Source: an uncultured Oscillospiraceae bacterium (GTDB lineage: Bacteria > Bacillota > Clostridia > Oscillospirales > Oscillospiraceae). From it: 64,000 nucleotides of DNA. The notes below the pieces were generated by a model, which ran no database searches, had not been told where the DNA came from, and saw only the letters and a program-made list of their open reading frames with translations. How positions within the stretch are numbered: the stretch's first letter is position 1; the number at the start of each line of letters is the position of its first letter. The stretch lies in the NCBI GenBank assembly GCA_947629955.1, contig CANRFT010000006.1, positions 3,226 through 67,225 on the forward strand, written 5' to 3'. This document shows positions 27,354 to 28,781 of the stretch, piece after piece. The position numbers and the translations under genes were made by a program.

Positions 27354-28781
27354 GTGCTGAATAAAGAATATATCTTAGAGACCATCCGGCCCTACCTAAT
27401 TGAAGGAAAAAAACTTCGGGAAAGTGATTTTGACCAATTATTTTCTGAACTTACCCGTAAAGAGCAATATCAAATCATTGAAATTTTAATCGACGAAGAT
27501 ATCGACTATGTTGATGATGAAATGGATCCCACTATTGCCCAGGAGAGTACTATAGACATACTTGCCGAAATTGAGCCAGAGCAAATTACCGAGACAAAAA
27601 AGCTATCTACAGCGAAAAAATCCACCATGGGAGGAGATGCTAAACAGCTCCTCGGCCTTAAAAACGAACAATTGTGTACTCTATATCAGCAGGGAGAGTC
27701 TCTCGCTCTTGAAGCGCTGATCCTTAAAAATGAGAAATTTGTTTATCGAGATGCCCTTATCCTTTCAAGACAGTTTAAGCAGAACAGCCTTACGATAGAT
27801 GACATTGTTCAATACGGAAATATCGGACTAATTGCGGCAGCAGATCGTTTTGATGCTACTCGTGAATGTTCATTTTTGACATACGCAGGCCACTGGATTA
27901 AGCAAAGCATTATCAGGAATATTATTGACCATGCATATATGATACGGTTGCCTGTCCATGTAATGGAACGGGTGCGCCGTTTTTGGGGTATACGTGCAGC
28001 ACATCCCGATTTTACTGAAACTGAATTGATCAATGAAATTATCACATTAGGATATGCTACATCGGCAAAAGAAATCCGCTACCTTCTTAACCTCGGTGAT
28101 CAATATTTGAATACTACCAGCCTTAATGTCCTAATTGGCGAAGATGAAGAAACAGAGCTTGAGGAATTTATCCCTTCGGATATTTCAGTGGAAGAAGTCG
28201 TAGATCAAACATTGCTTCGGGAAAGCTTGGAAAAAGTGTTATCCATGCTTACGCCACGAGAGGAAAAAATTCTTCGCCTTCGGTTCGGGCTTGATGATGG
28301 CATCGAGCGGACTTTGGAGGATGTTGGCAAGATATTTGACGTTACACGAGAACGAATCAGGCAGATTGAAAACAAGGCGCTAAAGAAATTGCGACATTCA
28401 TCAAGGGCCAAATACATTCGTGACTTTTACGGTGACAAAGCGAAGAAAAAATCTTCTTCCAAAAATAAACTGAAGCCAACACAGCAGGATGTTACTCCTA
28501 AGCAACAACATAGAGAATCCTTTGACTTTTTCGCAGACACAGAATTCGATACCCAAATACAAGAGGTCTTGAATCATCTTACCGAAAAGGAAGGTTTTAT
28601 CTTCTCGTTAAGGTTCGGAATAGATTATGGGCATTGTTTAACTCCGGAAGAAATGGATACTCTTTACGGAATCAAAAAAGAAGAATTATATATCGTAGAA
28701 AACAAAGCATTGTTTCAAATGGATGCTTCATTTCGAGAAAAGTTTAAGGCTATATTCTATGGAAGGAGCGCACAAAAGTGA
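27354..28781 (+). CDS. RpoD/SigA-like sigma-70 factor with an additional C-terminal region-4-like domain
   Basis: GTG start after AGGAGG; region 2 ([28 protein letters not shown]), region 3 ([20 protein letters not shown]), region 4 ([30 protein letters not shown]), second LTEKE..LRFGID..ENKAL block. Confidence 0.88.
   Translation: [475 protein letters not shown]

What the first reader, a model, noticed from the sequence alone, without database searches (positions are those of the whole stretch)
27354..28781. Mobile RpoD paralogue with near-canonical region 4.2, altered region 2 and a second region-4-like domain
Seen: region 4.2 ([30 protein letters not shown]) is almost identical to SigA. 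The region 2.3 W-dyad is HW rather than WW, and DLIQEG reads DIVQYG. An acidic region-1.1-like N-terminus is present. After a Lys/Ser linker comes a second, degenerate region 4 ([16 protein letters not shown]..ENKAL). Established: region 4 binds the -35 element and the beta flap and is the target of phage anti-sigma/appropriator proteins such as T4 AsiA. Inference: the extra domain could be bait or an autoinhibitory module rather than a promoter-recognition module.
Basis: partly seen in the sequence, partly recalled or inferred. Interest (0 to 1): 0.72.

Follow-up and report, generated by a model that had tools for sequence, protein, structure and literature searches.

The report
Helicase-linked sigma with duplicated region 4
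This gene encodes a copy of the cell's main transcription-initiation factor that has grown a second, non-DNA-binding "region 4". It is the first gene of a horizontally transferred three-gene cassette (sigma, giant RecQ-like helicase, nuclease-helicase) whose sigma-helicase core recurs in about 200 bacterial species among anti-virus genes and looks like an undescribed defence module.

Summary
Window 27354-28781 encodes a 475-aa SigA-like sigma factor. It has an acidic region-1.1-like N-terminus, regions 2-4, a Lys/Ser linker and a true second region 4 (r4b).

r4b is 38% identical to r4a (E 8e-15) and has the same predicted helix pattern. It is under purifying selection (dN/dS 0.17). It is acidic (pI 4.8 against 9.8) and has lost four of the five -35-contact residues. 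It arose once, in one shallow clade.

The larger result concerns the pairing with a helicase. Sigmas of this family almost always sit directly upstream of a roughly 1070-1180-aa RecQ-like helicase: 75 of the 80 best of 206 genome loci, and also Bacilli plasmids. About a quarter of the 80 loci inspected add a NERD/UvrD-type helicase. Neighbours are restriction-modification, Mrr, Vsr, WYL and toxin-antitoxin genes, or conjugative elements. No phage carries the pair.

In the window, the 6.8-kb cassette is 82% identical in DNA to human-gut Clostridia copies. It lies in a 41-46% G+C island inside a 65% G+C genome.

Across the family the -35, -10 and extended -10 recognition residues are invariant, so promoter recognition is retained.

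Best reading: this is the targeting subunit of an undescribed mobile helicase-nuclease defence-type system, with r4b as a regulatory or adaptor domain. Function is untested.

The parts
21941..23626 (-). Large serine recombinase at the left end of the low-G+C island.
   Evidence: Pfam Resolvase 101 bits, Recombinase 70 bits and Zn_ribbon_recom 51 bits. Synteny with a same-genus relative ends at window 21946.
23623..24246 (-). XRE-type HTH regulator, overlapping the recombinase gene.
   Evidence: Pfam HTH_3 68 bits. PADLOC control-protein/capH-like HTH hits.
27282..27310 (+). Conserved sigma-A-type promoter of the cassette (TTGAAA, then TGtTATAAAAT, i.e. an extended -10).
   Evidence: It is the best promoter-like site in the region, 10 of 12 matches. 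The same TTGAA(A/G)...TG(T/C)TATAAAAT is kept in gut copies L001/L006/L009 and in L011. DNA homology to the gut cassettes begins at 27269.
27339..27344 (+). Ribosome-binding site AGGAGG, 9 nt before the GTG start.
   Evidence: Sequence read.
27354..28781 (+). Sigma-70 family gene, 475 aa, SigA-derived, first gene of the operon.
   Evidence: The best PDB sequence matches are Firmicutes SigA (7l7b_F at E 7e-48; 8x6f_E aligned over residues 8-359).
27354..27518 (+). Region-1.1-like acidic N-terminal domain (residues 1-55).
   Evidence: pI 4.1. AlphaFold2 pLDDT 81-86 with an H-E-H-H-E pattern. It aligns with the N-terminus of S. aureus SigA. A paralogue (L041) gives a weak Pfam Sigma70_r1_1 hit at E 0.006.
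27765..27923 (+). Region 2 core (Pfam r2, residues 138-190), containing DIVQYG and the HW dyad.
28188..28445 (+). Region 4a (residues 279-364): canonical, basic, with the intact -35 recognition helix [10 protein letters not shown].
   Evidence: Pfam r4 68 bits. pI 9.8. R584/E585/R586/R588/Q589 are invariant in 78 of 78 aligned family members, apart from one R586C.
28440..28535 (+). Lys/Ser/Gln-rich disordered linker (residues 363-394).
   Evidence: pLDDT 25-47. pI 10.4. It is the fastest-evolving segment, dN/dS 0.31.
28536..28757 (+). Region 4b (residues 395-468): duplicated region 4, acidic, with DNA-contact residues lost.
28778..32314 (+). RecQ-like SF2 helicase, 1178 aa. Its GTG start overlaps the sigma stop (GTGA).
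   Evidence: Pfam DEAD 81 bits and Helicase_C 78 bits. PADLOC C3a193 464 bits. Motifs TAPTGSGKS, DESH, FTATA and QEIGRAAR are present. The N-terminal 265 aa give a confident model (pLDDT 90.6) with no PDB fold match.
32317..34041 (+). NERD nuclease-like domain fused to a UvrD-type SF1 helicase, 574 aa. It starts 2 nt after the helicase stop.
   Evidence: Pfam NERD 51 bits and UvrD_C_2 39 bits. PADLOC RTasNERD-Hel 241 bits and C3a187 62 bits.
34056..34095 (.). 18-bp perfect hairpin (terminator-like) just after the operon, outside the DNA shared with the gut cassettes.
   Evidence: Homology to the gut cassettes ends at 34040.
34150..34893 (-). Cluster of five tRNA genes (Lys, Gln, His, Arg, Gly) forming the right border of the island.
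   Evidence: G+C jumps from 0.45 to 0.645 here.

Best explanation
The gene encodes the sigma subunit of a mobile, three-gene, defence-type cassette: sigma, a RecQ-like SF2 helicase, and a NERD/UvrD nuclease-helicase. The three are transcribed from the cassette's own sigma-A-type promoter and are translationally coupled.

Shown:
- The sigma descends from Firmicutes SigA.
- It keeps invariant the residues that read the -35, -10 and extended -10 promoter elements.
- It is almost never found without the helicase.
- The cassette moves horizontally and sits among restriction, toxin-antitoxin and conjugative-element genes.

Inferred: the sigma binds core RNA polymerase and/or promoter-like DNA and acts as the targeting or sensing subunit. 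It would couple the helicase, and where present the nuclease-helicase, to transcription-initiation bubbles on invading DNA, or to disturbance of sigma-A-dependent transcription by a phage.

Region 4b is a clade-specific tandem duplication of region 4. It lost DNA binding but kept its fold and the LRFG(I/L)D core. It most likely serves as a protein-protein module on a flexible tether: either a regulatory (autoinhibitory) domain or an adaptor that docks a partner such as the helicase or the beta-flap.
For: Operon structure:
- The sigma stop overlaps the helicase start, there is a 2-nt gap to the third gene, and a conserved promoter and RBS precede the sigma.

Linkage of sigma and helicase:
- The same three genes occur at three or more chromosomal sites in human-gut contigs.
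- Short-form sigmas at 44-68% identity precede the same two helicases.
- Sigmas at 37-42% identity precede the helicase plus other nucleases.
- A sigma lies on the same strand upstream of the helicase in 75 of the 80 best of 206 genome loci, directly adjacent in about 68 and with one SF1-helicase gene in between in seven.
- The pair is also found on E. faecium and L. plantarum plasmids.

Defence-type neighbourhood:
- 22 of 102 same-strand operon partners are NERD/UvrD-type helicases. The rest include type I and II restriction-modification genes, methyl-directed restriction enzymes, Vsr, MutH-like proteins and WYL regulators.
- Some copies lie in a conjugative element.
- The pair is absent from 50,697 phage genomes. 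It is also absent from 2.9 million viral contigs, apart from 5 distant helicases that have no sigma beside them.

Horizontal transfer:
- Only window 27269-34040 matches the gut cassettes, at 82% DNA identity.
- G+C is 0.41-0.46 against 0.60-0.68 in the flanks.
- The helicase's family-specific N-domain is found in 2 of 151 genomes of the host's own family.

Sigma function retained:
- Invariant or nearly so across 80 family members: R584, E585, R586, R588, Q589, T429, Y430, W434, Q437, R441, H455.
- dN/dS is 0.11 over the whole gene.

Region 4b. It has a single origin in the sigma tree (100/100 support). The short-form sister L011 has an unrelated 135-nt spacer where r4b would be.
Against: - There is no experimental or expression evidence.
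- Defence is inferred from neighbourhood only. Many loci have no obvious nuclease partner.
- In Selenomonadaceae the pair sits between housekeeping-looking genes: an LMW phosphatase and a thioredoxin-reductase-like gene.
- Binding to core RNA polymerase is not shown. Region 2.2 positions 407 and 409 vary; from recalled literature these contact the beta-prime clamp helices in primary sigmas. Pfam does not detect region 1.2 or, in this protein, region 3.
- No mechanism for telling self from non-self is evident.
- A physical sigma-helicase contact is inferred from gene order only. The role proposed for r4b is inference from charge, conservation and tethering.
Confidence: 0.45

Rival explanations
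1. Private expression module. The sigma is only a transcription factor that the cassette carries to guarantee its own expression in whatever host it lands in, or during phage-induced shut-off of host SigA. It makes no physical or mechanistic contact with the helicases. Region 4b would modulate its activity, for example as an in-cis anti-sigma.
For: - The promoter-recognition residues are intact.
- The cassette has its own sigma-A-type promoter with an extended -10, which by established knowledge depends less on the region 4/-35 contact.
- The cassette crosses distant lineages such as Clostridia, Negativicutes, Gastranaerophilales and Deferribacterota.
- Other sigma-led cassettes were noted elsewhere in this scan (unchecked leads).
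Against: - A sigma with housekeeping specificity would add little at a promoter the host SigA already reads.
- The pairing is with one helicase family only and is near-absolute (75/80), while the other cargo varies.
- In some loci the sigma is not the first gene, or an SF1 helicase gene lies between it and the RecQ-like gene.
- Domains added to the sigma in other lineages point to DNA sensing rather than mere expression. An example is a DpnI_C domain, whose Pfam family is described as an HTH domain and which, from recalled knowledge, binds methylated DNA, in L. plantarum.
Confidence: 0.2
2. Guard/decoy or toxin-antitoxin-like abortive infection. The RecQ-like helicase, with the NERD nuclease-helicase, is toxic and is held in check by the sigma. 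The sigma imitates host SigA, so a phage anti-sigma or RNAP-hijacking protein that binds region 4 titrates it away and releases the effectors. This is the first reader's 'bait' idea, applied to r4a or the whole sigma rather than to r4b.
For: - The gene order and overlap resemble an antitoxin-toxin pair.
- The helicase core matches the PADLOC model of PsyrT, named in PADLOC as part of the PsyrTA system and, from recalled literature, its toxin (169 bits).
- r4a is about 76% identical to host SigA region 4 and has an identical recognition helix.
- Isolated sigma-A/sigma-70 region-4 fragments that match r4a are in the PDB (4g6d_A, 4g8x_A, 1tlh_B). From recalled knowledge these come from complexes with phage G1 ORF67 and T4 AsiA.
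Against: - If the sigma were only a decoy, invariant -10 and extended -10 recognition residues in region 2/3.0 would not be expected.
- r4b itself is too diverged and too acidic to mimic SigA.
- No toxicity data exist.
Confidence: 0.2
3. Housekeeping-type DNA repair or management of transcription-replication conflicts. The sigma tethers a RecQ-like helicase to RNA polymerase to resolve R-loops or stalled complexes. The mobile copies are incidental.
For: - In Selenomonadaceae the pair lies among housekeeping genes (lead e1-4014064).
- The helicase profile's top PDB matches include RecQ and RECQ5.
- The only PDB hit of the third protein is chain 6wvk_H, named DNA helicase IV (E 3.5e-4); NCBIfam's top match for the third protein is the HelD_BACSU model (50 bits, cut-off 419).
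- From established knowledge, RECQ5 and HelD both bind RNA polymerases.
Against: - The distribution is sporadic (2 of 151 genomes in the host's family).
- The cassette lies in a low-G+C island.
- It occurs on plasmids and conjugative elements and among restriction and toxin-antitoxin genes.
- The Selenomonadaceae copies are accompanied by a Bro-N/T5orf172 gene typical of mobile DNA.
- The HelD match is weak and limited to the generic SF1 domain.
Confidence: 0.07

Closest known systems
Primary (group 1) sigma-70 factors of Firmicutes, SigA (e.g. C. difficile SigA 7l7b_F, S. aureus SigA 8x6f_E)
   Same: The domain order is the same: region 1.1-like, 2, 3, 4. The protein is 40% identical to the host's own SigA over regions 2-4. 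The -35 recognition helix is identical, and the -10 and extended -10 residues are conserved.
   Different: - It is not the housekeeping sigma. The host has its own dnaG-sigA operon.
- It scores far below the NCBIfam RpoD cut-off (226 against 572 bits).
- It has no Pfam region 1.2.
- Region 2.2 has diverged.
- It carries an extra region 4.
- It is always encoded next to a helicase.
MzaA, the sigma-70 family protein of the Mza anti-phage system (PADLOC PDLC02203; NCBIfam NF041931)
   Same: Both are sigma-70 family proteins encoded inside a candidate or known defence operon. MzaA is the best PADLOC and NCBIfam hit for this protein.
   Different: The match covers only the generic RpoD-like C-terminal part of MzaA (profile positions 491-720 of 726), at 233 bits against a cut-off of 800. 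No other PADLOC Mza model matched any of the seven island proteins scanned. The partner proteins are entirely different.
C3a193 ('poss. alt. Cas3') and C3a187 ('NERD+UvrD') of Shah et al. 2018, RNA Biol, PMC6546367
   Same: The two helicases of the cassette match these two profiles: 464 bits nearly full-length, and 62 bits. The SF1 partners in other loci also match C3a187.
   Different: In that paper they are three-member clusters listed as possible type III CRISPR-cas accessory genes. It mentions no sigma and proposes no system. I noticed no cas genes among the neighbours I annotated in the window or the loci examined.
Nhi and other NERD/SF1 helicase-nuclease defence proteins (PADLOC Nhi, RTasNERD-Hel, GajB)
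   Same: The third gene has the NERD + UvrD-like architecture typical of single-protein or accessory helicase-nucleases in defence systems.
   Different: The Nhi model matches only partly (36 bits). Here the protein is the third member of an operon led by a sigma and a RecQ-like helicase.
Phage proteins that bind sigma region 4 (T4 AsiA, phage G1 ORF67) and decoy/guard immune sensors
   Same: Region 4 is an established phage target. Region-4 fragments that match r4a are in the PDB; from recalled knowledge they come from such complexes. This gives a rationale for a defence system to carry a SigA look-alike.
   Different: There is no evidence here of any such interaction. The duplicated r4b has lost the surface these proteins would recognise.

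Membership tests
Primary sigma factor RpoD/SigA (group 1 sigma-70) | Scores above the curated RpoD/SigA equivalog models. | tested here: not met
   NF006666 226 bits against a cut-off of 572. TIGR02393 220.5 against 354.
Primary sigma factor RpoD/SigA (group 1 sigma-70) | Regions 1.2, 2, 3 and 4 are all recognisable. | tested here: inconclusive
   Pfam detects only r2 and r4. The region 3 helices are present in the AlphaFold2 model and in the alignment to SigA. The DPVRMYLKEIG motif of region 1.2 is absent.
Primary sigma factor RpoD/SigA (group 1 sigma-70) | It is the cell's housekeeping sigma (a single essential copy, in the dnaG-sigA operon in Firmicutes). | tested here: not met
   The host has a separate 434-aa SigA downstream of dnaG on another contig. 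This gene lies in a foreign low-G+C island.
Sigma-70 family (promoter-recognising sigma) | Conserved DNA-recognition residues for the -35, -10 and extended -10 elements. | tested here: met
   R584, E585, R586, R588, Q589, Y430, W434, Q437, R441 and H455 are present in the window protein and invariant or nearly so in 80 family members.
Sigma-70 family (promoter-recognising sigma) | Binds core RNA polymerase and directs initiation. | not testable with these tools
   Needs biochemistry. Region 2.2 positions 407 and 409 have diverged.
Sigma70_r4 domain (for the C-terminal block r4b) | Homology to region 4 and the region 4 fold. | tested here: met
   BLASTP against r4a gives E 8e-15. BLASTP against host SigA region 4 gives E 4e-8. 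phmmer hits fall on region 4 of ordinary sigmas. The predicted helix pattern matches. The Pfam model itself gives no hit on r4b alone.
Sigma70_r4 domain (for the C-terminal block r4b) | The -35 DNA-contact residues and the basic surface. | tested here: not met
   R584K, R586E, R588Y, Q589I; positions 596-600 read FQMDA; pI 4.8.
MzaA (Mza defence system) | Full-length match above the cut-off, with MzaB-E partners. | tested here: not met
   233.5 bits against a cut-off of 800, C-terminal part only. The neighbours are a RecQ-like helicase and a NERD/UvrD helicase.
RecQ family helicase (for the second gene) | Scores above TIGR00614 recQ_fam, with the RecQ C-terminal domains. | tested here: not met
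   167 bits against a cut-off of 219.8, helicase core only. The N-terminal 265 aa and C-terminal 530 aa have no Pfam hit. The N-domain has no PDB fold match.
Anti-phage defence system (generic) | Genomic association with known defence genes and mobile elements. | tested here: met
Anti-phage defence system (generic) | Protects a host against phage or plasmid challenge. | not testable with these tools
   No experiment was possible, and no paper describing the pair was found.

The most novel reading that the evidence does not exclude
Sigma-guided immunity. The SigA look-alike uses RNA polymerase's promoter-melting machinery to open strong consensus promoters on incoming phage or plasmid DNA, and hands the bubble to the RecQ-like helicase and the NERD nuclease-helicase, which then unwind and destroy the DNA. 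In the window's clade the tethered, acidic r4b keeps the complex switched off, or docks the helicase, until a phage factor or the beta-flap displaces it. This would be a defence system that uses transcription initiation itself as the sensor of foreign DNA.
Probability: 0.2. Interest if true: 0.9.

Novelty: new variant of a known kind. Interest (0 to 1): 0.7.

Why it matters
Sigma factors are textbook transcription-initiation subunits. Here a full-length, housekeeping-type sigma is hard-wired to a giant RecQ-like helicase. The pair travels on islands, conjugative elements and plasmids through gut and rumen bacteria.

If the pair is a defence system, it would add a new sensing or targeting principle to bacterial immunity: promoter recognition, RNA polymerase engagement, or a SigA decoy. 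It would also give a function to helicase families so far known only as 'possible alternative Cas3' clusters.

The duplicated, DNA-blind region 4 is a natural experiment on what region 4 can do besides reading the -35 element. Other lineages add different modules to the same sigma: a DpnI_C domain, a doubled region 1.1, and an unknown C-terminal tail. This suggests that the sigma is the adaptable sensor end of the system.

Tried and rejected
- I looked for a published description of a sigma + RecQ/NERD system in five full-text searches. Nothing relevant was found; the 'MzaA' search returned only noise.
- I tested whether r4b occurs elsewhere as a family. Only its own 50%-identity cluster appeared. 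Apparent tandem-r4 proteins P0098 and P0126, and the chimera-like P0091, look like assembly artefacts or duplications of ordinary primary sigmas.
- At first I assumed the 65% G+C host was an actinobacterium. I rejected this because its own SigA is Clostridia-type and follows dnaG. The organism name could not be obtained.
- I tried to define an empty integration site in relatives. The left flank is shared up to 21946, but no relative has the left and right flanks adjacent.
- I looked for remains of r4b in the 135-nt spacer of the short-form sister cassette L011. None were found.
- The fold search on the helicase N-terminal domain gave no match.
- Pfam, PADLOC and PHROGs scans of the other island ORFs (24.3-27.2 kb) gave nothing, apart from one sub-threshold Pfam zinc-finger hit (E 0.003, below cut-off) on ORF 26603-26893.
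- The repeated hit to window 19.8-20.5 kb is only an ABC-transporter ATPase gene.
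Full report
**1. What is at the coordinates**

The window is about 60-68% G+C, except for a trough of 41-52% between about 24 and 34 kb. On the + strand lie three tightly packed ORFs: 27267/27354-28781, 28778-32314 and 32317-34041.

The real start is most likely the GTG at 27354. An AGGAGG lies 9 nt upstream, and homologues begin MLN(K/R)EY. That gives 475 aa.

- Pfam finds Sigma70_r2 (residues 138-190) and one Sigma70_r4 (296-348).
- NCBIfam aligns residues 32-358 to nearly the whole Firmicutes RpoD model, but at 226 bits against a cut-off of 572.
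- The best solved-structure sequence matches are C. difficile and S. aureus SigA. The latter aligns over residues 8-359.
- Foldseek on the AlphaFold2 model also returns only primary sigmas.

**2. The second region 4 is real**

The r4a segment and the C-terminal block align at 26/69 identities (E 8e-15), including a shared ...FYG tail found only in this clade.

The 87-aa block was searched alone against 1.84 billion representatives. It finds its own cluster (P0066 at E 7.5e-44, plus a fragment). Most remaining hits fall at the region-4 position of sigma-length proteins (three were checked with Pfam), and at least one is a spurious leucine-rich-repeat protein. The block also matches region 4 of the host's own SigA (E 4e-8).

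AlphaFold2 (49-sequence alignment, mean pLDDT 73.5) predicts for residues 395-468 the same five-helix pattern as for r4a (279-364). The two are separated by a disordered Lys/Ser/Gln linker at pLDDT 25-47.

r4b is degenerate in a specific way:
- The Pfam model no longer sees it.
- Its pI is 4.8, against 9.8 for r4a.
- The -35 contact residues R584, R586, R588 and Q589 read K, E, Y and I.
- The basic patch 596-600 reads FQMDA.

It is not decaying, however. Between the window copy and the gut copies, dN/dS is 0.17 for r4b, 0.09 for r4a, 0.31 for the linker and 0.11 overall.

**3. r4b is a young, single-origin addition**

All tandem forms fall in one 50%-identity cluster. In the sigma tree they form one group with 100/100 support. 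The short-form cassette L011/P0087 is their sister.

In L011 the place of linker + r4b is taken by an unrelated 135-nt spacer. More distant relatives end right after r4a.

The shared FYG tail of r4a and r4b points to an internal tandem duplication.

Other lineages decorate the same sigma differently:
- Gastranaerophilales add an unrelated C-terminal tail of about 85 aa.
- One Ruminiclostridium copy has two region-1.1-like domains.
- An L. plantarum plasmid copy carries a DpnI_C domain (a Pfam HTH domain that, from recalled knowledge, binds methylated DNA) in front.

**4. The HW dyad and DIVQYG are family variation**

In 80 helicase-linked sigmas, position 433 is W26/F24/Y11/H9. Position 407 is A/V/E/Y/I and position 409 is F/M/N/Y.

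By contrast, these positions are invariant or nearly so: T429, Y430, W434, Q437, R441, H455, E458, R584, E585, R586, R588 and Q589.

So promoter reading (-35, -12/-10, extended -10) is under strong constraint. The region 2.2 surface, which in primary sigmas contacts the beta-prime clamp helices (established knowledge), has drifted.

**5. The sigma is one half of a conserved pair**

- The about-80%-identical gut homologues always precede an 1177-aa DEAD/Helicase_C protein and a 574-aa NERD/UvrD protein, at three or more different chromosomal positions.
- Short-form sigmas at 44-68% identity precede the same two helicases. One lies beside a type I R subunit and a STAND NTPase, another beside an integrase.
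- Sigmas at 37-42% identity precede a 1070-aa version of the helicase, followed by Mrr/AspBHI-type, MutH-like, Vsr and C5-methylase genes. In one case the pair is inside a conjugative element.
- A scan of one genome per species with the helicase alignment found 206 loci. In the best 80, a sigma ORF lies on the same strand upstream in 75, directly adjacent in about 68 and separated by one roughly 655-aa SF1-helicase gene in seven. Four of the five exceptions are cut by a contig end.
- The taxa are mainly Clostridia and Negativicutes. Gastranaerophilales, a Mucispirillum, a Desulfovibrionaceae MAG and a Tenericutes MAG also appear.
- Plasmids of E. faecium (next to a type I R-M system) and L. 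plantarum (between IS elements and toxin-antitoxin genes) carry the pair too. NCBI annotates it there only as 'sigma-70 family RNA polymerase sigma factor' plus 'helicase'.
- Of 102 same-strand operon partners, 22 are NERD/UvrD-type SF1 helicases. Most others are restriction-modification parts, methyl-directed restriction enzymes or WYL regulators.
- No phage genome has the helicase at full length. The five distant hits in 2.9 million viral contigs have no sigma beside them.

**6. Mobility in this genome**

Only window 27269-34040 matches the gut cassettes, at 82% DNA identity. That stretch is the promoter leader plus the three genes.

The island runs from a large serine recombinase and an XRE regulator (21941-24246) to a block of five tRNA genes at 34150-34893. 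A same-genus relative shares the left flank only up to 21946.

The helicase's family-specific N-domain occurs in 2 of 151 genomes of the host's family.

The host has 24 sigma-70 region 2 hits and its own Clostridia-type SigA behind dnaG. That SigA is 40% identical to the island sigma.

**7. The partners**

The helicase has all SF2/RecQ-like motifs but falls below the RecQ family cut-off. Its 265-aa N-domain folds confidently (pLDDT 90.6, pTM 0.83) yet has no PDB fold relative. Its C-terminal 530 aa have no Pfam hit.

PADLOC's best models are C3a193 for the helicase and RTasNERD-Hel/C3a187 for the third protein. C3a193 and C3a187 are three-member clusters that Shah et al. 2018 listed near type III CRISPR-cas loci, without any sigma.

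There are weak hints of a link to RNA polymerase. The only PDB hit of the third protein is chain 6wvk_H (named DNA helicase IV; E 3.5e-4), and NCBIfam's top match for it is the HelD_BACSU model (50 bits against a cut-off of 419). RecQ and RECQ5 top the helicase profile's PDB list. These are generic-domain similarities and carry little weight.

**8. Interpretation**

Shown:
- A SigA-derived sigma with intact promoter-recognition residues.
- A near-obligate genetic coupling to one RecQ-like helicase family.
- Horizontal mobility.
- Defence-island, conjugative-element and plasmid contexts.
- A selected but DNA-blind extra region 4 in one clade.

Inferred: the sigma is the targeting or sensing subunit of an undescribed helicase(-nuclease) conflict system, and r4b is a tethered protein-binding module (regulator or adaptor). 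I put 0.45 on this.

Rivals:
- A purely self-expression sigma (0.2).
- A guard/decoy or toxin-antitoxin-like arrangement in which the whole sigma, or r4a, imitates SigA (0.2).
- A repair or conflict-resolution role (0.07).

The idea that r4b is the bait is not favoured, because r4a resembles host SigA far more closely than r4b does.

**9. Earlier notes of this scan**

After I had established the linkage independently, the scan's notebook showed that other agents had seen the same sigma + RecQ-like pair in other genomes and also judged it an undescribed candidate defence module.

These are unchecked AI notes, not independent evidence. One of them pointed me to Shah et al. 2018, which I then read.

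**10. Limits**

No multimer prediction, no model coordinates and no experiment were available. The host organism could not be named.

Noticed in passing
L002:11425-21428 (human-gut contig ERZ914743): In one gut copy the RecQ-like helicase gene stops after about 97 codons. It is followed by prophage genes: a CHAP/Amidase_2 lysin, XkdX, a DGR-type reverse transcriptase and Mtd_N. A prophage seems to have inserted into, or replaced, the helicase gene.
   Followed up: no
L109:3809-5182 (L. plantarum plasmid NZ_CP028223.1): The sigma upstream of the helicase on this plasmid is 457 aa. It carries a DpnI_C domain (a Pfam HTH domain that, from recalled knowledge, binds methylated DNA) at residues 71-136 (E 2e-18), ahead of regions 2-4. 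This suggests that the sigma's N-terminus can be swapped for a DNA-modification reader.
   Followed up: partly
L076, L082, L083, L086, L102, L106 (Gastranaerophilales): The helicase-linked sigmas of this lineage carry a conserved C-terminal tail of about 85 aa (...N.YFFKKNNVSYIPE...LYEK...QNSY...). It is unrelated to region 4 and has no Pfam hit.
   Followed up: partly
L041:2935-4257 (Ruminiclostridium MAG): This sigma has two tandem copies of the region-1.1-like N-terminal domain.
   Followed up: no
window 28778-29572: The first 265 aa of the helicase are conserved across the family. They give a very confident AlphaFold2 model (pLDDT 90.6, pTM 0.83), yet no PDB structure resembles it (best Foldseek E 0.07) and there is no Pfam hit. 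This may be a new domain.
   Followed up: yes
window 31955-32311: Helicases that pair with the NERD/UvrD gene (about 1170 aa) have an extra C-terminal block of about 115 aa (IPLADYY..AKL...DV.LAW..QK.AL). The 1070-aa forms lack it. It has no Pfam hit. It could be a small nuclease-like or partner-binding domain.
   Followed up: partly
window 34150-34893 and 34056-34095: Five tRNA genes (Lys, Gln, His, Arg, Gly; minus strand) lie directly to the right of the island. An 18-bp perfect hairpin sits between them and the operon end.
   Followed up: partly
window 24306-27256: Several ORFs lie between the XRE regulator and the cassette: 281 aa at 24978-25823, 189 aa at 26026-26595 (or 150 aa on the minus strand), 96 aa and 98 aa. 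They have no significant Pfam, PADLOC, NCBIfam or PHROGs hit, and they are not shared with the gut cassettes.
   Followed up: partly
L079 (contig labelled Escherichia coli, CAVCLW010000006.1): Its sigma is essentially identical to that of Phascolarctobacterium succinatutens L077 (zero-length branches in the sigma tree), and the two loci share the same neighbouring gene clusters. The contig is probably mis-binned.
   Followed up: no
L075 (Selenomonas flueggei ATCC 43531): Its sigma nests inside a Lachnospiraceae clade in the sigma tree, which indicates transfer between classes.
   Followed up: no
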